A stretch of 63,981 nucleotides of DNA, counting the filler, from Halocafeteria seosinensis (taxonomy: Eukaryota): the NCBI GenBank assembly GCA_001687465.1. It is 6 parts of 6 records of this genome, joined end to end, with 100 filler letters (N's around TTAATTAATTAA, not from the genome) between each part and the next. Parts side by side here need not be neighbours in the genome. Positions count along the whole stretch, not along the records: positions 40,272 to 48,569 come from LVLI01000112.1; 5 more parts are not named here. The stretch is one strand, 5' to 3'. Position numbers and translations under genes: made by a program. The notes beneath the pieces were generated by a model that ran no database searches, was not told the DNA's origin, and worked only from the letters and a program-made list of their open reading frames with translations. Within the stretch, counting starts at the first letter, position 1; the number at the start of each line of letters is the position of its first letter. Shown piece after piece: positions 16,930 to 48,569 of the stretch.

Positions 16930-19307
16930 TCCATCTTGACCACCATATTGTTTCGCCAATACAGCGTTCCCTTTGTCTTCCAACTGTTTATTTTCTATTC
17001 GCAACTGTTTCTCTCCTTAACTGGATTGTTATCAAGCCGGTGTGTGACTAATGGCCGACCACGATATTGGACAGCATCTTCTACAGTTTTTTTGCCATCT
17101 TCGGATAACTGATTGGCAGGTGTTTCGTGAGAATAGAGTTTCTTATGCAAGAGTCGTTATCCAACTGGCTCTTCGTTTCAACCTTCGCTTTCACTGCCTG
17201 ATTGCATTTCTCAGCCTCATGGACCATCCGGTCCACCTCTGCTTTGCTCAGTCGCGCGTTCTCGTTGGTAATCCTGATCTAGTTCTGCTTGCCCACCGGC
17301 TCCGCCTTGGCCACCATACAGTGTCGTCAGTACAGGGTTCACCTTTACTTCCAACTGCTTACGCTTCTCTTCGTATTCTTCTTTCTCTTTGTCTTGGTTG
17401 TTGTCAAGCCAATCAATCGTCTCTTGAGCAGCATCTTTTACAGTCTTCTAGTCATCTTCGGACAGCTGGTTGGCAACTTTCTCATCTCGAATAGAGTTTC
17501 GAACAGAGAAAGCGTTGTTCTCCAATTGGTTCTTTGCTTCAACCTTCGCTTTCATTGCCTCGTCTTCAGCTTTGTACTTCTCTGCCTCTTGGACCATCCT
17601 CTTAACTTCTTCTTCGCTGAGTCGACCTTTTCCGTTTGTAATCGTGGTCTTGTTCTCCTTTCCGGTGCTCTTCTCAATGGCAATTACATGGAGAATGCCA
17701 GTCACGTCTACATCGAAGGTCACCTCAATCTGCGCAGTCTCAGTCGACATTCCTGTGAGATACAGTTTGCCCAAGAAATTGTTATCCTGGGTCATGGGCT
17801 GTTCTCCTTCGAATATCTGTAGCAGCGTATCTCCTTGAATATCGCAAGGCGCACGTATGGTGCTCGTCTTCATGCAAGGAATTGTAGTATGCCGTTCAAC
17901 CAGGACAGTCATCCGCCGATGCCCATCGTCGAAACCGAGAGAATAAGGAGCATTGAACAGAATAAGCATTCCGTCTAGTTTTCCACTGGTGTCACCTCCA
18001 CTAATTATTGTTGCTTCTATTGATGCTCCATCAACGACAGCTTTGTCATGGGAACCGCTCTCGGATATTATTTCTTTGTTGAAATAGTCTTTCAGCATCT
18101 GTTGAATCTTCGGGATGCGCGTGGATCCTCCAAGCAATACAATGTCGTCGACTTCATCTTTCGGTAATTGCGAGTCTCTCAGCATGCAATTGAGATTACG
18201 CAGAGCTAAATGAAAATGCTTCATGCACATTTGCTCAAAATTAGTGCGAGTGATAGAAGTGCGGTAGTCGATTCCTTCGAACAGAGAGTCGACCTCAATG
18301 CATGCCTCGTCAGTGAAGGTGAGAGGGCGTTTAGCTCCTTCGCAAGCGGCTCGAAGGCGGCAAAGCGCTACTTTGTTGTTTCGAACGTCCTTGCCGTATT
18401 TCCGTTTGATATCACAGATGCAATTCTCGACTAGCTCTGTATCCAAATCCGTGCTACCACCTCGCATATCTCCAACAGATGCTTGCTCCTCGAAGACTCC
18501 CGAATCTACGCCCACCAAAGAAGCATCCACAAAGCAGGCACCCATGTCGAAAGTCACAACATTAGTCATAACATTTCGTTCTCTTTGGCTTTCGTCGTAA
18601 TATCGAGGAAGGAGGGCTAGTACAGACTCTTTGCAACACCGCATCACGTCTAGACCCGCAACCCTCCCGGCAATTTCGATCGCTTGACGTTGCTGGTCAT
18701 TGAACGACTGCATGTGCGACATGCGAGGATATACCACAAGCTGTGTACACAAAAGCCCATGACTACGGGAAACGTACCGCTGGAACCGCAATGACGCAGC
18801 TGGTAATCACGTCTCCTAGGTAGTCTTCCGCCAGTTCTTTCAATTTCCGAAGAACCATTGCGCAGATCTCCTCAGGAAAAAAATACTTCGTCTCACCCAT
18901 GTACTGCACTTGTATTAATGGTCTATCCCTCTCGTTAGCGACAACTTTGAAAGGGTGATTCTTCATGTCCTCCTGGAAAGCAGGCTCACTGAAGTTGCGG
19001 CCAATCATTCGCTTGACGTCGAACACAGTGTTGGAAGGGTTCCTGGCGAGTTGCTCCTCCGCTGCCTCTCCAATCAATCTCCCTTCATCAGTGAAAGCGA
19101 CATACGAAGGCGTCTTACGGTTCCCCAGTTCATTGGGGATGACTTCCACATGGTCATGCTGCACCCTCACCGTGTTTGCGTGATAAGAATGAATTCAACC
19201 GGGATGATGATGATCCAAGCGGCACTCACCACCCATATTCCTACGCTCGAGTACCTACTACCGAAATCGATGCCGATCGCAGGGCATTTATTATCAGGGG
19301 GGCCCAT
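16930..19307 (-). pseudogene. Divergent, probably degenerate Hsp70 paralogue with an in-frame stop and a duplicated C-terminal lid segment
   Basis: Same two-intron layout as the neighbouring Hsp70. Core motifs are eroded: GIDFGSRYS, CCKESVLA for [16 protein letters not shown] for [12 protein letters not shown] at 17448-17450 replaces AAG. A second degraded ITNE..RLSK..EV.RMV.EAEK copy lies at ~17280-16930. Confidence 0.8.
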
Positions 19308-19980
19308 CTTTGCCTTGCTTGAGGGCACCAGTGCTGGAATGGAGTCACGATCCCGGGTGGGTGAGATGGACGTTCTTTCTTCTATGCGGGCCCTGGAACT
19401 TCTATATGTACGTGGTATAAGGAGCTTACAAGCTGAGGGGTGAATAATATAATTCAGGTAGACATGTGATGAACAATCTGTGTACAGTAGTTCACGCACG
19501 AAACAACCACAACCCCCCTTTGTTGCATGACGCAAGTCGAAACAAGTTTTCCGAATGATGAATGAAAATTCAATTTTGCTTGACGGAATTGGTGAAAATT
19601 ATCGTTATGCATTGCATTACATACCATGCACTGATGCACTTGACCTTCGAGACTTTCTACTGTCGATGCGCGTCATTTTTCTCACCGTGTCGCAAGGAGC
19701 CAGTCATTGGGTACAGGGGTTGCAGCGCAGCAGAAGTGCATCAAGTGGTGTGCAACCTGAGCTAGGTAAACTCCGTTCTTAAAGGAAGCGTCCCTAACTT
19801 TGGGGGGAACGTCCGTCACCAGTCACATTTCACCGTGTTGGCTTCTGCAGTGGCCAATATGGTACAATACTCAATATTGCATACCAGTTGTGTATTGGTT
19901 CGGACAGTAACTGAAATAGAGGGAAGAAGCAAGACTGCCAGTCTAAGTTGTTAGGAACCACCCTGAAGCGTGGTCCGAAA

Positions 19981-22394
19981 TTAGTCCACTTCCTCGACCT
20001 TAGGGCCTCCGCCACCACCTCCTGTGTCAGCACCGCCACCAGCGTCACCACCACCAGCACCGGGCATGCCACCACCTGGCATTCCACCTGGCATACCGCC
20101 AGCACCACCAGCTCCGCCTTGGCCACCATACAGTTTCGTCAATACAGGGTTCACCTTTTCCTCCAACTGCTTACGCTTCTCTTCGTATTCCTCTTTCTCT
20201 TTGTCCTGATTGTTGTCTAGCCAGTCAATTGTCTCTTGGACAGCATCTTCTACAGTCTTCTTGTCATCTTCGGACAGCTGGTTGGCAACTTTCTCATCCC
20301 GAATAGAGTTTCGGACAGAGAAAGCGTAGTTCTCCAATTGGTTCTTTGCTTCAACCTTCGCTTTCATTGCCTCGTCTTCAGCTTTGTACTTCTCTGCCTC
20401 TTGGACCATCCTCTCAACTTCTTCTTTGCTGAGTCGACCCTTCTCGTTGGTAATTGTGATCTTATTCTCCTTTCCGGTGCTCTTCTCCACGGCACTCACA
20501 TGGAGAATGCCATTCGCGTCTACGTCGAAGGTCACCTCAATTTGGGGAGTCCCACGCGGCATTGGCGGAATACCATCCAAGTGAAACTTGCCCAGTAGGT
20601 TGTTGTCTTTAGTCATGGCGCGTTCTCCCTCGAACACTTGGATCAAAACGCCTGGCTGATTATCCGAGTACGTGGAGAATGTTTGGGTCTTCTTGCAAGG
20701 GATGGTGGTATTCCGCTCGATCAAGGTAGTCATCACACCACCAGCCGTCTCCAAGCCGAGAGAAAGTGGAGCCACGTCGAGCAGCAAGAGGTCGTCCAGT
20801 TTGCCACCTTTATCTCCTCCAGTCAAAATGGCTGCCTGAATGGTTGCACCATATGCGACTGCCTCGTCGGGGTTAATGTTCTTGCAGGCTTCCTTTCCGT
20901 TGAAGTATTCCTCCAGCATGTTCTGGATCTTTGGGATACGAGTGGATCCACCGACCAATACGATTTCGTGGACTTTGTCCTTGGAAACTTCCGCGTCTTT
21001 CAAGACCTTATCAACGGGCTGCATCGTCTTGCGGAAGTACTCCATGCACATTTCTTCGAAACGAGCGCGAGTTACAGTGGTACTGTAGTCAATGCCCTCG
21101 AACAACGAGTCGATTTCGATGAAAGCCTGAGTGCTGGAAGAGAGCGTGCGCTTAGCTCGCTCACAAGCAGTGCGAAGACGGCGTACAGCTCGTAGGTTTC
21201 CTGTCATATCTTTCCGATGCTTCCGCTTAAAGTCTTGCATGCAGAATTCAACCAACTTGGTGTCGAAGTCTTCACCACCCAAATGGGTATCTCCCGCAGT
21301 TGCTTTGACCTCGAATATACCGCTGTCAAGAGACAGTAAGGACACATCGAAAGTGCCACCACCCAAGTCGAAAATCAGAACATTTCGTTCTCCTTCCTTC
21401 TTATCGAGCCCGTAAGCAATTGCAGCTGCTGTTGGCTCGTTAATGATGCGGAGAACCTCCATACCAGAAATCTTCCCGGCATCTTTCGTTGCCTGGCGCT
21501 GACCGTCGTTGAAATACTGCAGGTAGATAGCAAGAATAATCCCAAATAAAATGAAATGTTGTAGACTTCTTAATCAATGCCGGGCTGTACTTACAGCTGG
21601 CACCGTAATTACGCTTTGGTTGACAGAAGTTCCCAAGTAAGATTCAGCAATCTCTTTCATCTTCTGGAGTACCATCGATGAGATCTCCTCGGGAAGGAAG
21701 TACTTCGCCTCGCCTTTGTACTGAACTTGAATCTTGGGCTTATCATTGTCTCCAGCGACAACTTTGAAAGGCCAACTCTTCATGTCATTCTGGACGATCG
21801 GATCACTGAATTTGCGGCCAATCAATCGTTTAGCGTCGAACACGGTGTTCGACGGGTTCATGGCAGTCTGGTTCTTGGCCGCATCTCCGATCAATCGCTC
21901 TTGATCAGTGAATGCAACATACGACGGCGTCGTACGATTCCCTTGGTCGTTGGCAATGATCTCTACTCGATCATTCTGCATACAATCACGAAGAAGAAAT
22001 GCTTGGTAAAAAAGTTGAACTTGCCGAATTCAAATCCACAGCACCGGTACAGTCAAGCTCTCTTGGGAGGCTACCAGCTCATTCAACGCAACATTCAACG
22101 AATTGCTCCCGTATTGCCCACACTTGGGAAACAGCGAGGGTTAGCAAGAATGCCTCTCGCGTGTGTCATCCCTTCGTGAACCCTCGTAGAACGTGTGAGT
22201 CACACCTTCCCCGCGTAGAACATTCTACGATTCCACTCCGGCAACACGGCAGAATGGGCAAAATGGACTACAGGAAACATTGCATTAGTATTGCGTAGGA
22301 AACATACCTGCCATACACCTACGCAGGAGTAGGTGGTGCCCAAGTCAATGCCAACAGCAGGGCCTTCTTTCTTTCCTTCTCCTCCGCTCGACAT
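19981..22394 (-). CDS. HSP70: Cytosolic heat shock protein 70, 3 exons (22394-22308, 21975-21595, 21516-19981)
   Basis: [30 protein letters not shown] repeats and terminal GPKVEEVD; canonical GT-AG introns. Confidence 0.98.
22214..22229. promoter_or_regulatory. Candidate heat-shock element (nGAAnnTTCn) in Hsp70 intron 1; another GAAcgTTC at 22815-22822 upstream
   Basis: Near-palindromic CGTAGAACATTCTACG containing GAAnnTTC. Confidence 0.4.
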
Positions 22395-28835: not shown

Positions 28836-29423
28836 TGAAACTCCGTCCGCATCAGTGACGAGCACAGAGACTCCATCATCGTCCGTTACCTCGACGAAAA
28901 GCGCTAGTTCGTCGGCCACACCATCTGAGAGTCCTAGCTCCACGGCCAGTCCTACAGAGCGCGGAACAGCGTCGGGGACCCCTACAACGAGTGCTACCTC
29001 CTCCATAACATCGACCAGTACTAAAGCCGACACCCGTTTGACCGGTGACGCCTCGTTCACCGTTCTCCCCAGAGGACGCCGCGGTAGCCTTTGATGATTT
29101 ATATATACTGCAAATACTGTGTATATCCTGTTCGGAGAATCCAATTTCATTCCAATACGCTACAATCGCGCCATGAGGATCTCCTAGCTCTTCGGCAAGT
29201 TCACCTCCTGGCTTTGCAATAATGAATTGGACAAGTGGCCCTTCGTTGTCTTCATATTTAGCGTCATCAATATTGCAGAAATTCCAGAAGGAAATGCATA
29301 GGGTCTTCATATTCCTGAGAAGACAGAAACTCCAGTGACCCTTGGACCATGTCACTTAGGTCAGGAGCGCGACGAAATTGATCTTCTAAGCTTGCTTGTT
29401 TCTCGTTGATTAAAGTTTTGGGA
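28836..29423 (-). repeat. Inverted duplicate of ~31092-31681, followed by a ~130-bp tandem repeat out to ~29620
   Basis: ORFs 28876..29355(-) and 30985..31416(+) translate nearly identically; the ESRRKSLSSQGEDLGEKDP unit occurs twice. Confidence 0.9.
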
Positions 29424-30829: not shown

Positions 30830-30984
30830 AGGGAGGGACTATATTGGTAGGGAAACAAGCTTGAACGTTTCCCTCACACGGCAGGCAACACCCTGGGAAG
30901 ATCCCGCACTTCAACACCTGCCGTACTCGGAGTACAACTATTCTTGGGGTTCACGGACCAGGTGCAACCTAGCCATCTGCCATC

Positions 30985-32280
30985 ATGAGTGGTTCTGCGT
31001 ATACCCCTCACGACTCCACATGTGGCCATGGTCAGGCAGAAAATCGTTCGACACCGACGAGCCCACAAGGAGAGACCCAGCAGGAAAAAAATCCCAAGAC
31101 TTTAATCAACGAGAAACAAGCAAGCTTAGAAGATCAATTTCGTCGCGCTCCTGACCTAAGTGACATGGTCCAAGGATCACTGGAGTTTCTGTCTTCTCAG
31201 GAATATGAAGACCCTATGCATTTCCTTCTGGAATTTCTGCAGAATATTGATGACGCTAAATATGAAGACAACGAAGGGCCACTTGTCCAATTCATTATTG
31301 CAAAGCCAGGAGGTGAACTTGCCGAAGAGCTAGGAGATCCTCATGGCGCGATTCTAGCGTATTGGAATGAAATTGGATTCTCCGAACAGGATATACACAG
31401 TATTTGCAGTATATAAAAATCATCAAAGGCTACCGCGGCGTCCTCGGGGGAGAACGGTGAACGAGGCGTCACCGGCCAAACGGGTGTCGGCTTTAGTACT
31501 GGTCGATGTTATGGAGGAGGTAGCACTCGTTGTAGGGGTCCCCGACGCTGTTCCGCGCTCTGTAGGACTGGCCGTGGAGCTAGGACTCTCAGATGGTGTG
31601 GCCGACGAACTAGCGCTTTTCGTCGAGGTAACGGACGATGATGGAGTCTCTGTGCTCGTCACTGATGGGGACGGAGTTTCACTCGGTGCCACCGAAGACG
31701 TCGCAGTCTCTGTCGGTGTTGCCGACGGTCTGTCTTTGCCGTCACCAATCGACCTCATATCATGTCAAGAGGATATTCATTCGAATTCTGACTCAGAGAC
31801 GGTGATGGTGAGTTTTATGAACATGGCTATGGAAATGCCGTGATCCCTCACTTGATGGACCCAGAAAAATTGCCAACCTTCCTCATAGCGCACGATCTAA
31901 TGGGAGAGACTGACTTTTACGATGAACGACAAAATAAGCTGAATAGGACACTAATGTATATCCCGCTAAGACGTTCAAACATAGCGAAAGAAGTTGAGCA
32001 TTATTTTCGAGGAGATGGTGAAGTGAAACAGACTATACTGTTTCTGCGGCAGCTTGAGTCAATCGACGTAACAGTCGATGGAGTGTGGGCGCAAGAATAC
32101 CTCGTTTAGAAAGACGTTGGTGAAGGGAAGTTTGGACAGATCCTCTCATGGTGACGACATGCAAGTATCCGTCTCCCATGAAGGTAGTCAGACAAAAATT
32201 GACTGGGTAGTGCTAACCTCGCTGACTCAAGTGCCTCCTGAAGTCGAGGCCCTCCGCGGGAAACCTCTTTGTTGGTAGTA
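30985..32280 (+). pseudogene. Sacsin/NO-VEIN-like GHKL (HSP90-like) ATPase fragment, disrupted by a stop and an antisense Ser/Thr-rich insert
   Basis: HFLLEFLQNIDDAKY, NEIGFSEQDIHSIC, SSK...GQTGVGF, and later TLMYIPLR and TILFLRQLESI; TAA at 31414-31416. Confidence 0.65.
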
Positions 32281-38293: not shown

Positions 38294-41200
38294 CCAGAGC
38301 TACGGTTACATTCTAATCGCTGGAAACAATGGAGTGCCTGGAAAAGTTATTTCCGGTGATCGAAGAACCCAGTTTATTTGGAAAATACCGGTAATTAAGT
38401 ATTCCCCAAACAAGTATGACGGAGATCACCGAAGATTTAGTATTTCCATGAGCTGGATTCTCGAGGAATAGGGGAAAGCCTGCATTGGTTGAAAGTTCCT
38501 AATCCCCAACTTTGACTTGTCACGGAGTATTGTGCATACTGGAGGGAAGAGGAATGTTAGGACTACAAAATTAAGTACCTTATGTCTCTGGATGCAACTG
38601 TAGATGGGAGTTGCGTGGAGAAGGATACACCCGACGGAATGAATATGGTTGTAGGTTTCTAAGTTCCTGAAGTGAGTGATTTCTTGGCTTGTTAAGAGAT
38701 ACCCAAGAGTATAGAAGAGCTCCTGTGTCCCTTCCAAGACGATACCAGGATCAATGGAACTGCCGTTCCAGCACACTCTCTATAAGGTTGGCGTGCGAGC
38801 CTGCAAATGGTGAGTAGTTCAGTGACAGTTTTGTCTCGGCCGAGGTGGTACAGGGGTCGATGCCCTCCATAAACGCAGGCCGTTCTGTCAATTCCATAAT
38901 TTCTTGAGACTTTCTTTTGATATAGATGGATCTTCGGGTGGAAAGAGAAACAATTTCTTGTTAAACTTTACCGAAGGAAGCATCTAGTTCAACGAGACCG
39001 GAATAATAGATACGTTACTCTTAAGTGAACACAGCAACATGATTTGGGTATTTGATGTTATTAGTTATTCTTCCACGAGGTTTACAGTGCGACTAGATTA
39101 GCATCATCGACTCTGCATGTGAGTTGACCGCGGATTTTCGTACATACGTTCGCTGGTACTCTCTACTATGGCACGCTCGTATTTGGTGGACAAGGCAGCG
39201 CAGGTGGTGGTGGCGGGGCTGGTTAGTCTCACCACCATCATCCTGGTGGTACGTTTGACCGGGCAAGACCACTGGAGTTGTTGTTGATGGCATCATTCCG
39301 ATCGTCCTAACTTTCTGGCCCATTTCTGGACCACGTCGTGCGATATGTACGGCGCCGTTGCGATCTCACTCCTTGCTTCCACTGGCGCGAAGAGACTACA
39401 AATCCTTCAATGCAGTTCAACTGGAATCCACGCAGCAGTAAAACAGCGTAGTAAGTCCTGGTGGACTACGGGAAAACAGACATCATCAAACGCTTGAAAC
39501 AAGTTTAACCATGGAAGAAACGAACTTGGGAACTAGCAGTAGGCTACTCTGTAACGACTATTCCACTGCTCCATTGCAATTCATGAAAATACGGGATGAA
39601 AGTACGGGATGTAGCGTGAATCTGTTGTCAGCCGGAGGAGCGATTATCAATTCTTGCTTAAGAATCCCATGCCATCGAGGCTGTCGTATCCTAGTGGTAC
39701 CTCCACAGACATGACACGAATTCGTTTTGCGTGAACCCTTACTTGTGAGTTTCCGACCACCAACTAAGGTTGTCACAATGAGGGAATCAAATAGCATCAA
39801 TGTTCTTGTGGTTCGCCTTCTGTAGACGGCAGAATGTCTGGAACTGCCAACGCATATATTAATAACGAGTAATTGATAAATTTTTGATTTCCCTTAGCTC
39901 ACTTCGTTCGCACGGGAAATCAAAAACGCTTACGCTATTCATCAATTACTCGTTTCCTGACAGGACACAATTAGACTCAGTCAAATATCAGAGATATGAA
40001 AGTCAAGTTCCTAATATTAAGATTTTATTTATTATTCAAGTATATTTAACCTTATTCGCAAGGATAGAATTCAACACAGTATAATATCAGAGGTTCTCTT
40101 GTTTAGAACCTTACAATAGATACTATTAAAATTTCTTTAAATAGAAAATCTTATAATTTTGAAAAATCGTTNNNNNNNNNNNNNNNNNNNNNNNNNNNNN
40201 NNNNNNNNNNNNNNNTTAATTAATTAANNNNNNNNNNNNNNNNNNNNNNNNNNNNNNNNNNNNNNNNNNNNACCAAAGTTGCTCACAAAATTGTCAAACG
40301 ACCGCTGAAAGAATGACCGTTAAGACTCCGGCTAGGTTCACCCGCCTTCAGTAAGTTCCGACGGCCCTATCGTAGCTCTCCTGGTTACAACCGAGCACTA
40401 TCTCTTGATGCAGCTTTTTCGCCTGGTATCCTACTCTATCATAGTTGCTCACAAAGTTGTCAAACGACCGCTGAAAGCGTGATCGTATTGTATGCGGAAA
40501 TCCCGTATACATGTATTGTAGGGTGTACATAGTACGTACGAAATACCATGCCTCCGGATGCCGGCATGCTGGCGCGCCGGCGGTCCGTGCCGGGCTTCAA
40601 CTTCAACCTCGAGGTGGTTCACCCCCCCTTTTCCAAATCCGCTATCCGTCTGATCCCTGTTCTCGAATCCGGATCCCACCCAGGACATGCTATCCGTCTC
40701 AGTTCGTCGTCCCTGGCTCTCGTTCCCCCTCCATCATGCGCGTCTTCCAAACGTTCCATTCCGTCTCGTCCTTACTCCCCCGTCTCGATACAGACGCTTG
40801 ACTCGCTAGCAGTTCAATGCTTAATAGGAAGCTAACAAGCAATATTCACGTGTAGCAAACAGGACAAAAATCCAGACATTTCTCTCCTTGAGGTCTCTGT
40901 AGATCATATTGGCCCAAGAAGTATCATACGTGCAAAGTATGTACAGTATACCACTGCTTGAGCGTTGTGTGTTGAAGGTTTTCTGAGATGTTCATATCTC
41001 GGTATGACTGAGACTGTGACGTGGTAAATGACGAAGGGTTTCGACAGAAGCAAAGGGCAGTGCACCACCTGGATTGGCTTTACAATCTATCTAGCATTTG
41101 CTCTTTGACACCCGAAGTATACATCATCACGAGGGGTGGTCAGCACGTCCACACACCCATATTGAGCCCAAACGTAGGGTAAAATTGTCTCATGTATCGG

Positions 41201-42534
41201 GGATGACTGTAACGGCTCCCCTTCGTCTGCTCCCACAAGCGGCACGCGGTACGGCCCCCTTGGTCTCCCCTTCGAGACGTCCCTATCGCCCGTTCCCTCG
41301 GTCAGTTAGACTCCCAGTCTTCACAGACTCTTCAGGGTTGATAAGAACCGGTTCGTTGTAGAGGACTGCATCACCACTTCTCGAACCGGTCATCTGTTGT
41401 TTACCAGATTTATCTTGGTTACAATCAAGCATAGGTACCAACGGTACCACCTTGGATCTTTGCGGCTTTTAAGAAGCCGGTCCAACATCGGCACCCGAAG
41501 TTATTGTAGAGCATTACTGTATACAATCCTTCAAGTACGTTTGTATTGATGCAAGAGTAACAGTATCTGTGCGAACCTGGAACAGTGGTAGTGAGCCAGA
41601 TTGAGGTCCTGTGTATTTCCGTCTTCGAAGTTCGGCGCACCTCACGTGTCGTTGAGTGTTCGTTGGTTATAACTTATAGGGCATTTACTTGGCCATTTGT
41701 TCTGAACCCCATTTTGTTCATTTATATTTGCTGTTGCTTTCTTTCGTTTGTTTATTAAGGGTATCACACACGCAGCGAGTGACAGTCGGACCCAGTGAAA
41801 AACCGGTAGCTTTGACCAATCGATTGCGGACAGTATGTCTGCTTATATGCTAATTAATGACTCTCCTCCAGGTATGGAAGCGTCATTCCGTAAAGAGAGC
41901 ATATATCATCGGTTTGCATACTGGATACACAATGAGCAGCGGATAAGACAGACGACAGTCCGCCGAACCTGCCTACGGAAGACAGGGAAGAAAAAAACAC
42001 GGAGGAGAAACCAAGCAAGAAACAAGTTCTGACAGGGTTCTTTAACCTCGGTTCGCACCTTTTCCTACCGGTTTTTTCCCTTTCATTTTATTCGCAAGTA
42101 CTCTTGGACGGAACAGCCAGTATAGAAGTATATATCGCTGCCTCGGTGGACACAGTGCGTTTCCTGGTGTTTGTCTACTTCGCGGTCATGGTATTTCTCG
42201 GCAAACCGTCGGTTTCGCGTGATGGCTATCGTCAGCAATTGGTAACGTTGGGGGACAAAATTGCTAAGGTAAGTTAGTCTCTTCCTGCGGAATGAGCATA
42301 CTAAATATGCTGTCGAACGAATTAGTGTTCAGGCGCATGTATCGCATGGAACCCGGGCTGTTTCACTGATTCTGACGTTGGCATCTCTTGTCGTTATGTC
42401 TATGGAAGTGTCTCCTAGACGATCCGGTGCGTTGCTTGCATTTGAACTTGGTCTCCGAGGACGCCTTCAACTCGCTGGTTTTTTCTATGCAAAACTGGGA
42501 TTGCTACTGGCTCAACAAGTAAGGTGCGAATCGG

Positions 42535-44187
42535 TTGAATCCTGCTAAATTTCAGGATGGATGTACATGTTTCCAGGTGGCTGGTAATATTGGAGGTATG
42601 GACTTCGTTTGCCAGAAAACGTGCGGTGGTCACACTCCCACTATTGAGGAAAATGATTATTGCTCCATTGAGTGCACAGTAGGGAACAATGAACGTATGT
42701 ACCAAGTACTGGATGGAATTTTTGCTTCCATTTTCTTCGTGGCCATTTTATGTGGGATTCTACTGCTCCCGCATCTCTTCTTCAAGGCTAAGCTCACCAT
42801 GACCGAAGAGTCATGGCAAAGCGAGTATTTCCCCACGTCGGTGTCCATTAACCGTCTGGTGAATTTTCCCAACGCATGCCATTCGAACGATTGTAATGGG
42901 GATTATTTTGGACTACAGAATGTTCAAGTCGTTTCTAAAGAAGACATTCCTGAGACAGATCAGAAGGTATTGCCCGTTTCAAACCACGTACTCTTGGTGG
43001 ACTACAAGAACAGCACCACTGTACACCGGGGGTTTGTTACCTTGCCAGCTATGTTCGATTTCTTGAAAGCTTACAATATGAGCGTTGGCATATTCTTTCG
43101 AATTCCTCAGGTTGTTACAAACGGCTATCATGTTTGTATCGAAAGACTGCCGGTCAGACTGCAAGGAAATACCAGCATTGACTCTTCATCCCAGTCGCAA
43201 TCTAGGGATTTGGAGATCGGTTATTTTGCTGTCGGTGTTAAGGCTGCTGGAGAGTTCAATTGCTCCATTCGACCGGTACCTACCCACACACCATTGCTAT
43301 ATTACAATTACGTCTTAGGAAACAGCGGATCATCATCGTCTACCGATAGTACTTCTAAGCCACATGTACAAGGAGTCGTATCATTGGCTCAGGCATCATT
43401 CTCGTCCAATCCAGACAATGCGTTCAAGCCGTATAAGCAAAAAGGCGCGGGAGATTGCCCCAAGAACCACGTATGTTTTGAAGATGGCACCGTTGCATAT
43501 ATCCAAGAAGCGATTGACGACTCCTGCCCTGCGTGTTCTCCGTTCTTTCCTACTTCGGACTGGGCATTTTTCGTTTTGGGATTAACTTTTATGATATTTG
43601 TTTATTGCCTCTTTACAGCTTGCGGTCCTTGGCCAAGAATTGTATATTACATAAAGCAGTTTATTGCCGTGGTTTTTTTGTATCCGTTATTCTGTTTATA
43701 CTTGGCTTGCGTCTGCAGTAAGAAAAAGACCAGGGGATGTCTGGTCTTCCTGTATGGAACTGTTCTGTTTCTCATTCCGGTTGGTTATGTGTTAGTTTCT
43801 CCGTCGGTCGACGTTGATTATCACTTCCGGGACTTTCCCTTTCTTGTTCAAACACAAGATAAACGATTTGACAGTGATGACTCGATACCAGAACCACGTT
43901 ATTTTAACATCAATGCGATTTGCAACGGATTCTACTCATGCAATACCATCGATTATCTTCGAGAAGGCTTTGCCTATATGACAATCATTGCGTTTGTGTG
44001 CTTCGCCCTGGGATATTATCTTCAGCGGCTGGCCGATCTTGTACGAGGATGCATCACGGGTGAACGGATACACCAACACCAGGAACGGGAGAGACTGACG
44101 AGCCAATCGCAGAAGCAGGCCTCGTGGCGAGTAGCGAGCCCATCGTGCCCACTCCGGGGGAGCGAGGCCCAAGACGCGACGCTCTGA
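42535..44187 (+). CDS. Uncharacterised Cys-rich multi-pass membrane protein (probably has upstream exons)
   Basis: 550-aa open frame with about five hydrophobic helices and Cys-rich loops; no family recognised. Confidence 0.65.
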   Translation: MNPAKFQDGCTCFQVAGNIGGMDFVCQKTCGGHTPTIEENDYCSIECTVGNNERMYQVLDGIFASIFFVAILCGILLLPHLFFKAKLTMTEESWQSEYFPTSVSINRLVNFPNACHSNDCNGDYFGLQNVQVVSKEDIPETDQKVLPVSNHVLLVDYKNSTTVHRGFVTLPAMFDFLKAYNMSVGIFFRIPQVVTNGYHVCIERLPVRLQGNTSIDSSSQSQSRDLEIGYFAVGVKAAGEFNCSIRPVPTHTPLLYYNYVLGNSGSSSSTDSTSKPHVQGVVSLAQASFSSNPDNAFKPYKQKGAGDCPKNHVCFEDGTVAYIQEAIDDSCPACSPFFPTSDWAFFVLGLTFMIFVYCLFTACGPWPRIVYYIKQFIAVVFLYPLFCLYLACVCSKKKTRGCLVFLYGTVLFLIPVGYVLVSPSVDVDYHFRDFPFLVQTQDKRFDSDDSIPEPRYFNINAICNGFYSCNTIDYLREGFAYMTIIAFVCFALGYYLQRLADLVRGCITGERIHQHQERERLTSQSQKQASWRVASPSCPLRGSEAQDATL

Positions 44188-44239
44188 AAGGATGTACGTG
44201 TGAAAACATGATACTCACAAAGAGTCCGAGTGTTGGTGA

Positions 44240-44440
44240 CATACACACACACACACATATGTGACAGATAGCCCACCGGCCGGGGAGTTGACCGCATCCT
44301 CCCAACGAGGAGCGGTATGCGCCCGTGTTAGGTAGCGACGGGCCCGCTGTTCTTGCATCCTTGCTGACATGCGCCGTGAGGGAACACAACACTGGTTTTG
44401 TCAGGAGGCATCGGAGGAGGAGCCATGCCTGCGCCAACGA
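44240..44440 (-). mobile_element. Family B retroposon copy (~200 bp), 9-bp TSD TGTTGGTGA
   Basis: TGTTGGTGA at 44231-44239 and 44441-44449. Confidence 0.8.
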
Positions 44441-46273
44441 TGTTGGTGAGCGCAGGGATAGGCAATGCAGGAGGGCCCTGGGGAGATCTTCGACGGCGTG
44501 AAGATCCCCCAACTACATTTCCACTTAGCCGGTCGGCCGTAAATACCGGTAATACACAGTACTACGGATATCGGCTACCCAGAAGCAGAAGCACAGTGAA
44601 CGACTGATGCAAGACGACAACTGAGACGGAAGTGCCCGGTAAGTTAGCAAGAAGATCAGGATACGATCACTTTTCGCTATTAACGCGTTGTCAGTTGGCA
44701 AGTCGAAGTACATCAGCCTGTTCGGTGTTATACCTACAGTACTCCTCGATCCCACATCTGTATACCGGCCGGTTGCGTCACCAACGCAGCAGTCATGGTG
44801 TGTTTATTCCATGACTGAATGTTTTCCTTGTTTTTTATTGGTCATTCTTGGTCTCTGCACCTGAGAAAAGGTGCTCTGTCATTTCCCAAATGAAACGCTC
44901 TGGTACTCAGCGAAGAATTGATTTGACGCTTTGGTATCATGAATGCAGTTTGTATATTGAACGCTTTAGAGTTTGCAATGGTTGGACACCTGACAGAAGT
45001 CCTTCCATATGGTATGGATGCACCTCCACCGCGGTACACACGACTTTGTTAGAACGGGCAATTCCATGCGATAACAGTGGCGCCTTACCAAAGATGCATG
45101 TTCGATAACCAGGTTCATGCGGCTTCACCTGAGGTACTACTGCGGGCGGCTTCGGCGAAGACGCGATCAAGTTCCTCAAGAGAATTCCCAGGAATTCTGT
45201 CACGTTGATGCGCCACAACGTGAAGATGTTGGAGCTTGCTTAGCATTCCTATACAGTCTAGAAACCATAGGCCTACATATTCATTGTATAGTTGGAGATG
45301 ACGCCGATCGGATTGATTGAAGTCAAAATGCCAGGAAAATTGTATGAAGATGAAGCAGTGACCAATAAAAGAGTTTGTGGCCAAGTCTTCGACTACTTGA
45401 AGATGTTGCGACATTACAGTCTGTTTCACGAAGTTCGTGTTATTCTAATTACACGAACAATATGAAACATTCCCACAACGAAGATAGACGATTTCTGTTC
45501 ATACCATCAAATAGAGTGTAGTAAAAATAGCGGATGTCCTGAATTTCAGTTAATTACGTTTTCTCATCTTCGAGATATTGGCGGATATGTTGGCAAATTG
45601 TGGCCTCCTCAAACCACCAGGGGTCATTTTTGTGTCCCCTTTGCTTCCCCTGTGCTTTCCGCACGTGTGACTTGCCCTCTTGTGAAGTTCCCAAATCTGA
45701 ACTTCACATACATGGTGGCTGTGGTGGCGGTCACGAGTTCTTGTCATATACATATATCTATAGAGCTAACGCGTACACATTAGGACAATTACCTTAACTA
45801 GACTCAGTTCCGCGAAAGTTAACAAACAAAATGCCACGCAGAAACGTGCTACTAGCGGACGTCACGAACTGCCAGAGTGCTAGCGCAGCGCATCGTATCC
45901 ATCCAAAAAACCCGGAAGGTATGCAGAACTTCCCTTTTACACTGAAGTAATGGATATTCAAAAGTATCTGCCTCGGAAAGCGCACCAAACGAGAACTCAG
46001 GATAAAGTACGAGAAGTGACTAGAGCCTTATTCTCACCCTACGGTCGTTTCAAGCTGCAGAAGTGCTAGAGACGATGAGCTGCGAAAGGACCTAGATGTA
46101 GACTTCCCTATCTTTTATCAGAGATTTCAACGCCGTCATCAAGGAGGATCTGCAGCTCAATAGAAGGACAGCCCGAAGAATCCTCGTGGGCCTCTGGCCG
46201 CCGGTTATCAAGCCGCAGGGTTACATGCAATACACTCTGTACCTCATACCAAGGCTACTTTTGACGGCATCAA

Positions 46274-46714
46274 ATGAGAATTAGGGCCAATACGCTTATT
46301 TGTACACCAATAGCTGTAAAAAGAACCATTTCAACGGAATTACACGTTCTTTGTGAAACATGGCTCCGCAAAAGTTCAACTTGCCAAGAAAGACACGAAC
46401 TTCGTGAAACAGACGGTAGTCCAACTAGTGGAGCAATAAAACCAGCCGGAGATATTGCTGGTCTCTTTGGAGCTGGTGAAGCAAGCGGAGGTAAAGCATC
46501 GGATATTTTAGGAACAGTAGGTAGTATAGTCGGAAACTTTGGAATTGGAAAAGGAGGAAAACGTGGAGTCCAGAAGACTTCAGGAGCTGACAAACGTAAA
46601 GAAAGAGGCAGACAAGTAGCTAAATTGATGAAAGAGAAAGGTATGTCACTGGGTCAAGCATCGCACTATTTGAAACAACACGGAACATCAGGCGGTCATC
46701 TGGTCTTAGCCTAG
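46274..46714 (+). CDS. Virophage-type small Gly-rich, basic core-like protein; the 5' part may be non-viral
   Basis: C-terminal RGRQVAKLMKEKGMSLGQASHYLKQHG resembles the R..IV..VMKE.GLS..EASKYVKEHG motif of virophage proteins and is preceded by Gly-rich GLFGAG/NFGIGKGG. Confidence 0.65.
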   Translation: MRIRANTLICTPIAVKRTISTELHVLCETWLRKSSTCQERHELRETDGSPTSGAIKPAGDIAGLFGAGEASGGKASDILGTVGSIVGNFGIGKGGKRGVQKTSGADKRKERGRQVAKLMKEKGMSLGQASHYLKQHGTSGGHLVLA

Positions 46715-46719
46715 GCGTT

Positions 46720-46874
46720 CTTTTTAGAAAAAAGTAGCGTCAAAAACACCTGAACTTCAAGAGAATGTGCTTTTAAAAAAGCACGGCAAAACACTTGAAC
46801 TCCAAAAGAATTATTAGAGTTCTTTTGAAGACGCTAACGCGGAAAGAGTTTTGACGCCACTTTTTTTTAAAAAG
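46720..46874. terminator. AT-rich inverted repeat (26-bp arms at 46720-46745 and 46849-46874) with internal small hairpins
   Basis: CTTTTTAGAAAAAAGTAGCGTCAAAA versus TTTTGACGCCACTTTTTTTTAAAAAG, immediately after the stop at 46714. Confidence 0.5.
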
Positions 46875-46904
46875 GGATTAAAGTTTTATCAATAGAATAT
46901 TATA

Positions 46905-47153
46905 ATGGAAAATAGAAAGTCTAAAACAGTACCGGAGATTGAAGAACGTTTAAAAATTATAAGAACGCAGTTAGTTGAAACCGACTCTTTATTAAGAAAT
47001 GTATATAGAACGACTTATCTAACTCCAACTGTTGATAATGAAACTGGGGAGATAAAAAAAGAAACTGTTAGAAAAGGAACTTTAAAATTTACGTGTATTG
47101 AAAATATGTTTCACGATTTAAACTTTTTAACAGATTTAATCGGGTTATTATGA
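46905..47153 (+). CDS. Hypothetical 82-aa viral protein
   Basis: AT-rich ORF with AATAGAATATTATA before its ATG; its end overlaps the convergent ATPase stop. Confidence 0.55.
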   Translation: MENRKSKTVPEIEERLKIIRTQLVETDSLLRNVYRTTYLTPTVDNETGEIKKETVRKGTLKFTCIENMFHDLNFLTDLIGLL

Positions 47154-47966
47154 CTCAAAAAGGAAATTAGGTAAGAAAGCATTTTGAGCTGAGACAATAT
47201 ACTGTGGAACTCGGCTGATAGTGATACAACCTCCTGATTCCTTCTTCAGTTTTTTCAGAACTCGTTTGTCGTCAATGTTGGCATACTGCTGTCCGAAATA
47301 CCGCCAGTTATGATTAGATAGAGACTTCGGCCAAACGATAAAGTAATCGGACTCTCCGAGTATCATTTTAGTTTTCCAAGAGTTAGTAATGTTATGCCAA
47401 ATGGTAAAAAGACAAACTCCCTCTTGAGCCCCGCGTTCAGCAAGCCTATTGAGGAATTTAAGAATTTCTGCCGAGTTTTCATCATTGATAAAGTCATCAA
47501 AACAGATTAGACAGTTACTGAAATCTTCCATTTTGGGGCGTTCGTCTTCTTCGTCTTCATCCGGTGGTGAGAAACTCGCTGTCGGAATTCGCGTAATAGC
47601 TTTTTCTCCAACTTCTTTTTCAATAGTTGGGTCTTCAGTCTTACTAGAAACAAGATAAACTGGGTTATCTGTCAATGCTTGGTAGTTGTGAATCCAGCGA
47701 CACATTTCATGTGTTTTACCTAACCGCTTCATTCCAGCACAATAGGTAATAAACGTGCGTCCTTCTTGAAGACCTTTAGGGAGTGGGCTGTAATAAAAGT
47801 CAGACTTAAGTTTGATTTGAACTTCATCATCAGATTGAGGGGGAGTTTCTAGTTGGTCAGTGTGGATATTGAGGAAATCATCTCTGACGCTTTCGTCTTC
47901 AAGTTTTTTGATTAATGCTATAGTATCTTGTTTGTTATAGTCTTCAGATTTGTATAATCTTGGCAT
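47148..47966 (-). CDS. Virophage-type genome packaging ATPase (FtsK-HerA/A32 family)
   Basis: Walker A YCAGMKRLGKT, VYLVSSKTED, Walker B FSNCLICFDD, TIWH..N..KTKMILGESDYFIVWP and C-terminal VPQYIVSAQNAFL follow the Sputnik V3/mavirus MV15-type pattern. Confidence 0.85.
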   Translation of the reverse strand: MPRLYKSEDYNKQDTIALIKKLEDESVRDDFLNIHTDQLETPPQSDDEVQIKLKSDFYYSPLPKGLQEGRTFITYCAGMKRLGKTHEMCRWIHNYQALTDNPVYLVSSKTEDPTIEKEVGEKAITRIPTASFSPPDEDEEDERPKMEDFSNCLICFDDFINDENSAEILKFLNRLAERGAQEGVCLFTIWHNITNSWKTKMILGESDYFIVWPKSLSNHNWRYFGQQYANIDDKRVLKKLKKESGGCITISRVPQYIVSAQNAFLPNFLFES

Positions 47967-48088
47967 TGTTCTATATAGTTAGGAGAGTTTTTTCACTTTT
48001 GAGCGAAAAGTGAAAAAAGTCTGTTTAGAGTGCCAAATGCTTTTTAGAGAGTTTTTTTTTAAAAGAAGAACAGTATAAAGATATATAG

Positions 48089-48569
48089 ATGCCTCGTACT
48101 AAGTTATATACTAGCAAAGGAACTCCATTCACCCAAACTACCCACATCAGTAAGTCTGACGAGAATACGTCGTCTCCCGACTTTGTCTATGTCAATTTGA
48201 GTCTTGTTAATCACGCTACAGATGAACCCCCATCCAAATATCCCCTCTGTGACTTTAAGGAGAACACAAACAACCCTATCCTTCAAAATCCATCGGAATA
48301 TAAAGCCGGCGTTCTCCAATTTTCTATGGACGGAGTTACACAGTTTCTCCCTTGTCTTCACTTCTTCGCACAGGATGGCAGTACTAACCAAAGTATCTAT
48401 TCAGTCACCTTAGAATGTGATAAAGCCGAAGATGGAACTCAGGGTGCTGGCAATATCCAAACATTCACCCAACAGACGTTCGTTACCTATCAACCGCACA
48501 NCTTGGATGCCNCGAGTCCCTTAGTTGGTAACAAAGAAGATGAATACTATCATGTCTATGGCATAGAAT
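48089..48569 (+). CDS. Virophage minor capsid protein (penton), N-terminal part, truncated by the contig end
   Basis: PDFVYVNLSLVN...FKENTNNPILQNPSEYKAGVLQFSMDG...LP...NQSIYSVTL matches the virophage penton N-terminal pattern. Confidence 0.85.

What the first reader, a model, noticed from the sequence alone, without database searches (positions are those of the whole stretch)
46274..48569. Endogenous virophage fragment (packaging ATPase + penton + basic core-like protein) joined to host DNA
Seen: an abrupt switch to AT-richer, intronless, tightly packed ORFs at the end of an 8.3-kb contig. The rest of that contig carries host-type repeats (families A and B, also on other contigs) and a host-like membrane gene. 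Known: the ATPase and the penton are two of the four virophage core genes (the others are the major capsid and cysteine protease), and the MKEKG.S...AS.Y.K.HG motif recurs in virophage proteins. Integrated virophages can protect protist hosts against giant viruses (mavirus in Cafeteria). Inference: this is a provirophage, possibly of an undescribed lineage, which implies a giant virus infecting this host. The ATPase frame is intact.
Basis: partly seen in the sequence, partly recalled or inferred. Interest (0 to 1): 0.92.

Follow-up and report, generated by a model that had tools for sequence, protein, structure and literature searches.

The report
Transposon-cut endogenous virophage, rewired ATPase
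A protist contig ends in a piece of a virophage (a small virus that parasitises giant viruses) whose first gene is cut by a host DNA transposon; the piece is likely integrated in the host genome, a known phenomenon, but its DNA-packaging ATPase lacks the near-universal arginine finger and carries a P-loop arginine that may do that job instead.

Summary
The virophage genes are real: Sputnik-type penton (48089-48569, cut by the contig end), A32/FtsK-type packaging ATPase (47148-47966) and the 3' two-thirds of a basic core-like protein whose C-terminal motif marks virophage contigs (19 of 19). Viral DNA starts at 46419. A 1,004-bp TA-flanked inverted-repeat element (45415-46418, Tc1/mariner-like) interrupts the core-like gene, so ORF 46274-46714 is a chimera and no viral end or integration site is present. 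A contig from a spliced (RNA) library crosses that junction, supporting endogeny; the link to the host membrane gene runs through a multi-copy repeat and is unproven. Endogenous, transposon-invaded virophages are already described in bicosoecid protists, so this is a known kind. The unexpected part is the ATPase: Ala replaces the arginine finger (Arg in 162 of 166 aligned) and Arg replaces the P-loop glycine three residues before the Walker A lysine, the position of the cis finger of GBP1/atlastin. Three other database proteins share both changes (one identical, two 94-95%); a near-identical allele differs by 3 synonymous, 0 non-synonymous changes. Function untested. The scan had no look-alike on other DNA.

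The parts
41937..44187 (+). Host membrane-protein gene (main exon ORF 42535-44187) with a GT-AG intron at 42269-42332; marks this end of the contig as host DNA. The 5' coordinate is only the start of RNA cover.
   Evidence: Run X2 contig skips exactly this intron while X1 keeps it; ORF; no Pfam family above cut-off.
45292..45414 (+). Left flank of the TIR element: short host-like reading frame with an IEVK...GQVFDY motif that resembles Crinkler/RHS-type nuclease domains (recalled, not tested); not viral and not the missing 5' part of the core-like gene.
   Evidence: Translation; no Pfam hit; unlike the natural upstream sequence of the core-like gene.
45415..46418 (.). 1,004-bp non-coding TIR element (MITE-like, TA at both ends, arms begin CAGTC/CCGTC: Tc1/mariner-like by recall), TIR arms 45415-45446 and 46387-46418, with inner repeats; multi-copy in the host.
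   Evidence: end at 46418 followed by at least three different flanks in runs X2/X4 and the window, X1 depth 557 against 108 for the host gene (depth is no copy number); 4 small internal ORFs without Pfam hit.
46419..46714 (+). 3' two-thirds of a Gly-rich, basic virophage core-like gene (C-terminal MKEKG..AS.Y.K motif), 5'-truncated by the TIR element; DNA-binding core role is inferred.
   Evidence: P0166/P0167 91%/83% identical over the viral part, 17.6-18% K+R, 21% Gly; X1 holds an uninterrupted copy with 160 other upstream letters encoding the relatives' N-terminal side; motif in virophage contigs.
46715..46904 (+). AT-rich intergenic region with nested inverted repeats (arms 46720-46745 / 46849-46874); repeated elsewhere in the organism's viral DNA; possibly a transcript-end hairpin (inferred).
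   Evidence: Fold z = -5.7, 0 of 200 shuffles as stable; raised depth and loose ends in X1; similar T/A palindrome behind the L001 ATPase.
46905..47153 (+). 82-aa ORF of unknown function, convergent with the ATPase, stops overlapping; accessory (absent behind the L001 ATPase).
   Evidence: GC3 0.20; no Pfam above cut-off or PHROGs hit; two diverged X1 contigs at 87-91% identity.
47148..47966 (-). Virophage packaging ATPase (FtsK/HerA, A32-like), 272 aa, intact; Walker A GMKRLGKT with Arg81 at K-3 (codon 47724-47726), Walker B CFDDF, Ala180 in the arginine-finger column (codon 47427-47429), sensor His191.
   Evidence: AlphaFold model pLDDT 73; best viral fold hits YSLV5 5.5e-16, Sputnik V3 1e-13; PDB STIV2 B204, FtsK; column counts; codons.
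47967..48088 (.). Divergent intergenic region between ATPase and penton with a 17-bp hairpin (47984-48022) and a TATATAGA motif just before both start codons.
   Evidence: Fold z = -3.8, 0 of 200 shuffles; ATPase-side part conserved in L001.
48089..48569 (+). N-terminal 160 codons of a Sputnik-type minor capsid protein (penton); cut by the contig end, an assembly break.
   Evidence: Pfam V18-19 E=0.026, below cut-off, on the fragment; relative P0016 (424 aa, 89% identical) scores 35.3 bits against cut-off 27 and hits the Sputnik minor virion protein 3j26_N at 2e-6; X1 contig runs on 686 letters beyond 48499.

Best explanation
The last 2.15 kb of this protist contig is a piece of a virophage genome (truncated core-like gene, 82-aa ORF, packaging ATPase, penton) that is likely integrated in the host nucleus, and its left edge is not a viral end but a host TA-flanked inverted-repeat transposon inserted in the core-like gene. 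Shown: gene identities, the element's two ends, the truncation, an uninterrupted copy of the same gene in the same organism's DNA run, and k-mers across the element-virus junction in an independent RNA library. Inferred: a resident provirophage (one of several related copies) was hit by the element; recombination between two element copies, or an adjacent deletion, then replaced the virus's left arm with unrelated host DNA, so this copy cannot make virions alone and is decaying or complemented by intact siblings. The ATPase of this subtype is inferred to remain an active packaging motor with a rewired active site: the trans arginine finger is Ala180, and Arg81 at Walker A position K-3 most likely supplies the gamma-phosphate-stabilising guanidinium in cis, as in GBP1/atlastin (about 0.4 for this step alone).
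For: Virophage identity: fold hits; penton family above cut-off through P0016; motif contigs carry virophage core genes in 19 of 19 and a Sputnik-type MCP in 15 of 19 (Pfam positive in 15 of 15 tested); L007, a metagenome contig found with the ATPase alignment, has MCP, penton, ATPase, protease and pPolB with penton and ATPase head to head as here. Junction: TIR pair with TA ends; chimeric ORF; X2 contig 46389-46467 with 0 differences, chained by a 30-letter overlap to a contig 46284-46418; X2 is spliced, the window and X1 are not. Depth in X1 of viral genes 125-333 against 108 for the host gene, i.e. of the order of chromosomal DNA (not a copy number). ATPase: Arg at column 180 in 162 of 166 and Gly at column 81 in 153 of 166 aligned sequences; only the window, P0001, P0007 and P0008 carry R81+A180; 7 of 7 further virophage ATPases are canonical; the group nests in a long-stem clade whose other 15 rows are canonical where covered; 3 synonymous, 0 non-synonymous changes against L001, P=0.0085 if neutral; K84, T85, D157, D158, H191 kept. 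Precedent for Arg at K-3 as cis finger: GBP1 R48, atlastin R77 (PMC5084822), atlastins and thymidylate kinases (10.1101/2022.06.23.497301).
Against: The junction contig has depth 2.2 against 15.6 for the host gene and has 30 letters left of 46418, one short of the tool's 31-letter rule for a bridge. X1's core-gene contig runs unbroken through the junction position, so X1's contigs do not show this junction, nor the window's version of the 82-aa ORF. Nothing laid bridges the 1-kb element, and a near-identical element copy with another right flank exists (X2, X4), so the left flank may be an assembly crossover. MCP, protease and integrase are not on the contig and no genome was held. For the ATPase: in D6E terminase an Arg at the same K-3 position works together with a trans finger and both are essential (PMC5727402); P0127 has Arg at K-3 and keeps the finger; Arg178 lies two residues from the lost finger and could stand in; the selection test rests on three changes; the four carriers are one 90% cluster.
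Confidence: 0.55

Rival explanations
1. Same endogenous, transposon-cut virophage piece, but its link to this host gene is an assembly crossover: the assembler entered one copy of the 1-kb element from the host flank and left through another copy that sits in a provirophage elsewhere.
For: Left and right flanks of the element come from different loci; the element is multi-copy with a near-identical copy leaving into another flank (X4 687-nt contig, 2 differences in 222); no laid record spans it; short-read assemblies fragment such elements (PMC10120064).
Against: Mismatched flanks are also the expected product of recombination between copies or adjacent deletion (established transposon biology, recalled); the window's element has both ends in correct orientation.
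Confidence: 0.3
2. A free virophage in the culture or sample, chimerically joined to host DNA.
For: No viral TIR/TSD seen; a 98.6% identical ATPase region occurs on a metagenome contig (L001); X1 contigs do not show the junction.
Against: A host multi-copy element is inserted inside a viral gene at a TA, the junction is present letter for letter in a separate spliced library, and viral depth is of the order of host single-copy DNA.
Confidence: 0.06
3. A Polinton-like virus, Gossevirus or polinton rather than a virophage.
For: The defining MCP and protease are not on the contig; an adintovirus FtsK-like protein ranks 4th in the fold search; Gosseviruses share virophage-like core genes (PMC10120064).
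Against: Penton is of the Sputnik V18/19 family; best ATPase folds are YSLV5, Sputnik and LCPAC001, which PMC9952930 treats as a likely misbinned virophage; the core-like motif tracks Sputnik-type MCPs.
Confidence: 0.04
4. ATPase step only: Arg178 serves as a shifted trans finger and Arg81 is a terminase-like cis sensor, so the ring still couples subunits in trans.
For: D6E terminase needs both a K-3 P-loop Arg and a trans Arg, and the finger's position varies among ASCE families; Arg178 is present in the window and in 24 of 166 aligned rows, mostly its own clade.
Against: Arg178 is already present in sister rows that keep Arg180 and Gly81, so it does not explain why Gly81 changed to Arg in the same branch.
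Confidence: 0.35
5. ATPase step only: the protein is catalytically weak or dead and the subtype is packaged by, or interferes with, the motors of sibling virophages.
For: A residue kept in 162 of 166 rows is lost; a bulky side chain at this P-loop position can block fingers in other P-loop enzymes (recalled); related copies coexist in the host.
Against: Open frame, all other catalytic residues kept, 3 synonymous / 0 non-synonymous changes against L001 and 94-95% identical relatives with the same pair of changes. A dominant-negative role would also be under selection, so this is not excluded.
Confidence: 0.2

Closest known systems
Endogenous virophages of the bicosoecid Halocafeteria seosinensis (bioRxiv 10.64898/2026.07.28.741278; also PMC10120064)
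   Same: Integrated virophages of about 35% GC in a host of 47% GC, a host-specific clade unrelated to other virophages, 18 fragmentary copies besides 36 complete ones, transposons inserted in or beside viral genes. The window's host background (47.8% GC) is of the same kind, and the eukaryotic transcriptome protein P0002 in the ATPase clade bears an accession prefix that I recall as that species' transcriptome (recalled, not checked). Whether the window comes from that organism was not tested.
   Different: The preprint's main text names MULE, LINE, Helitron and unclassified TIR elements, not a TA-flanked Tc1/mariner-like element, and has no word on ATPase active-site residues (0 hits for arginine, Walker, mariner, Tc1, MITE). 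Its supplements were not seen.
EMALEs / mavirus in Cafeteria burkhardae (PMC8547959)
   Same: Multi-copy endogenous virophages, partial copies at contig ends, invaded by host transposons.
   Different: Invader there is the Ngaro retrotransposon; the penton and ATPase here are closer to Sputnik/YSLV5 than to mavirus; no TCTA late-promoter motif before the three intact starts.
Sputnik and Yellowstone Lake virophage 5 (class Maveriviricetes)
   Same: Penton family PF21507, packaging ATPase fold (TM 0.64-0.70), core-like C-terminal motif on contigs with Sputnik-type MCP.
   Different: Only 20-27% identity; ATPase on a long separate branch (stem 1.23, SH-aLRT 99); arginine finger lost; integrated in a host.
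GBP1 / atlastin GTPases and D6E-type large terminases (P-loop arginine at K-3)
   Same: Arg three residues before the Walker A lysine, acting on the nucleotide of the same subunit.
   Different: Unrelated families (TRAFAC GTPases; tailed-phage terminases); D6E still needs a trans finger; here the role is only inferred from sequence.

Membership tests
Virophages (Maveriviricetes, criteria of PMC9952930) | Virophage-like major capsid protein (required) | not testable with these tools
   Not on the contig or window; no genome held; the contig ends inside the penton.
Virophages (Maveriviricetes, criteria of PMC9952930) | Virophage-like FtsK-HerA ATPase (required) | tested here: met
   Best fold hits YSLV5, Sputnik V3; profile relatives lie beside virophage MCP/protease. 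The official virophage HMMs were not available.
Virophages (Maveriviricetes, criteria of PMC9952930) | Virophage-like cysteine protease (required) | not testable with these tools
   Not on the contig or window; no genome held.
Virophages (Maveriviricetes, criteria of PMC9952930) | Virophage-like penton (expected) | tested here: met
   Fragment alone E=0.026, below cut-off; 89% identical full-length P0016 passes PF21507 and hits 3j26_N; 33% to the L007 penton, E=3e-10.
Virophages (Maveriviricetes, criteria of PMC9952930) | dsDNA genome of 15-45 kb; dependence on a giant virus | not testable with these tools
   Only 2.15 kb present.
Provirophage (host-integrated virophage) | Contiguous with host DNA | tested here: inconclusive
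   Element-virus junction seen in a separate RNA library at low depth, one letter short of the bridge rule; link across the 1-kb repeat to the host gene not bridged.
Provirophage (host-integrated virophage) | Viral terminal inverted repeat and target-site duplication at the boundary | tested here: not met
   The boundary is a host TIR element inside a viral gene; this makes the copy a fragment, it does not exclude endogeny.
Provirophage (host-integrated virophage) | Integrase (rve or tyrosine recombinase) | not testable with these tools
   Not on the contig; no genome held.
FtsK/HerA viral packaging ATPases | Walker A, Walker B and polar sensor on a RecA-like fold | tested here: met
   GMKRLGKT, CFDDF, His191; model and fold hits B204, FtsK.
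FtsK/HerA viral packaging ATPases | Arginine finger between helix 3 and strand 4 (PMC11703096, PMC5727402) | tested here: not met
   Ala180 between helix 165-176 and strand 184-190 of the model, Arg in 162 of 166 rows; Arg178 is nearby.
Tc1/mariner-type non-autonomous element (MITE) | Terminal inverted repeats, TA at both ends, no coding capacity, multi-copy with different flanks | tested here: met
   Superfamily label rests on recalled TA/CAGT rules.
Tc1/mariner-type non-autonomous element (MITE) | TA duplication proven by an empty site; matching autonomous transposase | tested here: inconclusive
   The uninterrupted viral gene has TA at the insertion point, but the left flank is another locus; no transposase search was possible.
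Polinton-like viruses / polintons | PLV- or polinton-type capsid genes without similarity to virophage markers | tested here: not met
   Penton matches the Sputnik family; PMC9952930 reports no such similarity for PLVs.

The most novel reading that the evidence does not exclude
A subtype of host-integrating virophages has rewired its genome-packaging motor: it dropped the trans arginine finger kept across FtsK/HerA viral ATPases and gained a P-loop arginine that fires hydrolysis in cis, converging on GBP1/atlastin. Such a motor would not need, or accept, fingers from other subunits, which could insulate this subtype's packaging from co-resident virophage subtypes in the same genome.
Probability: 0.3. 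Interest if true: 0.7.

Novelty: new variant of a known kind. Interest (0 to 1): 0.42.

Why it matters
As a provirophage fragment it adds little: such elements, and their invasion by transposons, are described. The ATPase is the reason to look again. How A32/FtsK-type motors of virophages, giant viruses and polintons couple subunits has hardly been tested; a natural pair of close relatives (about 50% identical), one with the canonical finger and one with the finger swapped for a P-loop arginine, makes the cis/trans question directly testable in vitro. The locus is also a clean example of how a host DNA transposon cuts a provirophage and creates a chimeric ORF that misleads annotation.

Tried and rejected
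No whole genome held, so MCP, protease and integrase could not be sought. Direct Pfam, PDB-sequence and PHROGs searches with the window ATPase found nothing; the 67-row profile hit only generic P-loops in PDB, FtsK at E=0.08 over the Walker B-finger stretch and STIV B204 at E=0.1. Three scans of viral contigs with the ATPase, penton and 7-row alignment found no relative; the 67-row alignment was too diverse for a scan. No RNA holder was listed; that runs X2-X4 are RNA is my inference from one spliced intron in X2. Parts without cover in X2-X4 (most of the ATPase) are not used as evidence on expression. ESM Atlas gave only sub-0.8 leads for the core-like piece and no answer for the 82-aa ORF. 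No complex prediction was obtained. The careful tree did not finish; the quick tree (SH-aLRT only, midpoint root, 78 of 166 rows, no named reference viruses) is used only for nesting, not for a family assignment. Rejected: reading 46274 as the viral start; reading the element's TIR as a viral TIR (it is followed by several unrelated flanks and pairs with 45415-45446); pseudogene decay of the ATPase as sole explanation. Scan look-ups gave no look-alike and two unrelated PLV notes.
Full report
1. Observation. The window is a string of contigs joined by N/TTAATTAATTAA spacers; the finding lies at the right end of contig 40272-48569. The stretch 46419-48569 is 38.3% GC, below all 495 same-size windows elsewhere (min 44.2%, mean 47.8%, sd 1.4), 85% coding, with GC3 0.20-0.42 against 0.48 and 0.55 for two host genes. 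Host repeats at 40657-40829 and 44249-44397 recur on other contigs. The host gene at 42535-44187 has an upstream GT-AG intron (42269-42332) that a contig of run X2 skips and a contig of X1 keeps, so X1 is read as DNA and X2 as RNA (inference; X3 is the same sample as X2, X4 is unassigned).

2. Identity of the genes. ATPase: no Pfam or PDB sequence hit; 6 relatives at 48-95% among 404 candidates; the 7-row profile finds 2,257 representatives at E<=0.001, of which the best 150 were listed. The AlphaFold model (pLDDT 73, core 80-94) matches the YSLV5 packaging ATPase (5.5e-16), Sputnik V3 (1e-13), LCPAC001, an adintovirus FtsK-like protein and mavirus, and STIV2 B204 and FtsK in PDB. PMC9952930 (passages seen) calls the LCPAC001 contig a possible misbinned virophage and lists MCP, ATPase and protease as required markers, penton as expected. 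Penton: the fragment scores E=0.026 with PF21507 and 0.03 with 3j26_N; its 89% identical full-length relative P0016 passes the cut-off (35.3 against 27 bits) and hits 3j26_N at 2e-6. Of 7 metagenome loci found with the ATPase alignment, L007 carries a Sputnik-type MCP, penton, ATPase, protease-like gene and pPolB, with penton and ATPase head to head as in the window. Core-like protein: a degenerate pattern of its C-terminal motif found 19 IMG/VR contigs; 19 of 19 carry at least one virophage core-gene homologue and 15 of 19 an MCP, all 15 Pfam-positive for the Sputnik MCP.

3. The boundary. Self-comparison shows 32-bp inverted repeats at 45415-45446 and 46387-46418, both beginning TA-C(A/C)GTCTG, with inner repeats. 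Full-length core-like proteins P0166/P0167 align with the window ORF only from about residue 49. X1 holds a 528-nt contig that matches from 46426 and has 160 other letters upstream whose visible end encodes the relatives' N-terminal side and has TA at the point where the element ends. So the element sits inside the viral gene; viral DNA begins at 46419 and ORF 46274-46714 is a chimera. The element is multi-copy: X1 depth 557 at its end against 108 for the host gene, and at 46418 contigs of X2 and X4 leave into other flanks (two X4 contigs agree only 0.67 with each other). An X2 contig covers 46389-46467 with 0 differences at depth 2.2 and overlaps by 30 letters a contig 46284-46418; it is one letter short of the tool's bridge rule. 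Against: X1's contigs do not show this junction or the window's version of the 82-aa ORF (contigs drop rare variants and a filter leaves records out), and no record spans the element. The left flank (45292-45414) is not the missing 5' part of the viral gene but a host-like frame. The two flanks thus come from two insertion sites: recombination or adjacent deletion in the cell (0.55) or crossover in the assembler (0.3). On the right, X1's penton contig runs 686 letters beyond 48499, so that end is an assembly break. X1 depths of 125 (core-like), 192 (ATPase) and 333 (penton) are of the order of chromosomal DNA and fit several related copies, but are no copy numbers.

4. The ATPase active site. 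In an alignment of 166 rows (window, 161 of 165 fetched proteins of 150-400 aa, 4 locus ATPases; left out: the penton P0016 and three rows outside that length; near-duplicates included), column 180 is Arg in 162 and Ala in 4; column 81 (K-3 of Walker A) is Gly in 153, Arg 5, Asn 3, Glu 2, Lys 1, gap 2. Only the window, P0001, P0007 and P0008, one 90% cluster, carry R81 with A180; P0127 has R81 and keeps the finger. 7 of 7 ATPases from the motif contigs are canonical. Column 180 lies between helix 165-176 and strand 184-190 of the model, where PMC5727402 (passages) and PMC11703096 (passages) place the trans arginine finger of HerA/FtsK and viral packaging ATPases. A quick tree of 78 of the 166 rows puts the four rows (SH-aLRT 100) inside a 19-row clade with a long stem (99), so the state is likely derived (midpoint root, no bootstrap). 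Against L001 the coding sequence has 3 synonymous and 0 non-synonymous changes (P=0.0085 if neutral), and the other catalytic residues are kept. Arg at K-3 is the internal finger of GBP1 (R48) and atlastin (R77) (PMC5084822, passages) and assists in thymidylate kinases (10.1101/2022.06.23.497301, passages). In D6E terminase the K-3 Arg (R44, lysine K47) and a trans finger are both essential, and Arg178 could stand in as a shifted finger. Odds: cis replacement 0.4, shifted trans finger 0.35, weak or dead motor 0.2. No step of this was tested biochemically.

5. How it most likely works. Shown: gene identities, element ends, truncation, sibling copies. Inferred: a virophage integrated earlier by its own integrase; a host Tc1/mariner-like element inserted at a TA in its core-like gene; a later rearrangement removed the left arm. 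This copy cannot supply a core protein or be excised with its left end, so any antiviral role would rest on intact siblings. A giant-virus partner is implied only by general virophage biology; no TCTA motif precedes the three intact starts, which share TATATAGA or a variant. Intergenic hairpins (z = -5.7 and -3.8, 0 of 200 shuffles each) may end transcripts (inference).

6. Comparison with what is known. bioRxiv 10.64898/2026.07.28.741278 (parts 1-4 of 5 of the text read; supplements not seen and may list this subtype) reports 36 complete and 18 fragmentary virophages in a bicosoecid of 47% GC, forming a host-specific clade, often invaded by MULE, LINE and unclassified TIR elements, with no giant virus found. 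PMC10120064 (passages) and PMC8547959 (passages) report endogenous virophages in many protists and transposon-invaded EMALEs. The window's host background resembles that system; identity was not tested. A swapped arginine in a virophage ATPase was not found in print: searches (listings only; 2 papers hold virophage+ATPase+arginine finger, neither on this topic by title and abstract start) and 0 hits for arginine/Walker in the preprint's main text. The library lacks most subscription papers.

7. Verdict. Observation partly confirmed; interpretation partly supported. The element is a fragment of a known kind; the ATPase variant is the new point. Novelty: new variant of a known kind. Interest 0.42; the novel case has probability 0.3 and would deserve 0.7.

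Noticed in passing
window 48217-48222 (runs X2, X3): Contigs of X2 and X3 match the penton from exactly 48222, right after TACAG, with 105-120 other letters upstream: possibly a host transcript spliced into a cryptic acceptor in a penton copy.
   Followed up: no
L001:1-299 and 1188-1218: The 98.6% identical ATPase region on this metagenome contig has no penton upstream (a non-coding tandem duplication instead) and a T/A palindrome instead of the 82-aa ORF downstream; gene order varies among near-identical copies.
   Followed up: partly
window 46934-47156 (run X1): Two diverged copies of the 82-aa ORF (87% and 91% identical) at depth 16-18, far below host single-copy depth: minor or extrachromosomal variants.
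   Followed up: no
window 47967-47980 and 48080-48089: TATATAGA directly before both divergent start codons, conserved in L001; candidate promoter element that is not the CroV/mavirus TCTA motif.
   Followed up: partly
P0092, P0099, P0128: Three virophage-like ATPases have Asn at Walker A K-3, the residue that binds K+ in cation-stimulated NTPases, while keeping the finger.
   Followed up: no
L008-L026: A widespread virophage protein family with a conserved basic C-terminal motif (102-548 aa, often beside the MCP) has no Pfam model in the 4 members tested.
   Followed up: partly
L007:1-10750: Metagenome virophage with MCP, penton, ATPase, protease-like gene and protein-primed PolB; its ATPase also deviates (Walker A begins with Ala, KR in place of GR at the finger).
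   Followed up: partly
window 17448-22029: Two tandem intron-containing Hsp70 genes, one canonical with EEVD end and one strongly diverged (labels by recall).
   Followed up: no
window 1635-4259: 874-aa P-loop protein with a C-terminal helix-hairpin-helix-like end, resembling Crinkler/RHS-type proteins (label by recall).
   Followed up: no
window 28876-29355 and 30973-31843: Duplicated segments encoding fragments of a sacsin/NOV-like ATPase domain (label by recall).
   Followed up: no
window 45143-45235 and 44249-44397: Further short high-copy repeats with many loose ends and joints between them in runs X1-X4; the region left of the TIR element is repeat-dense.
   Followed up: no
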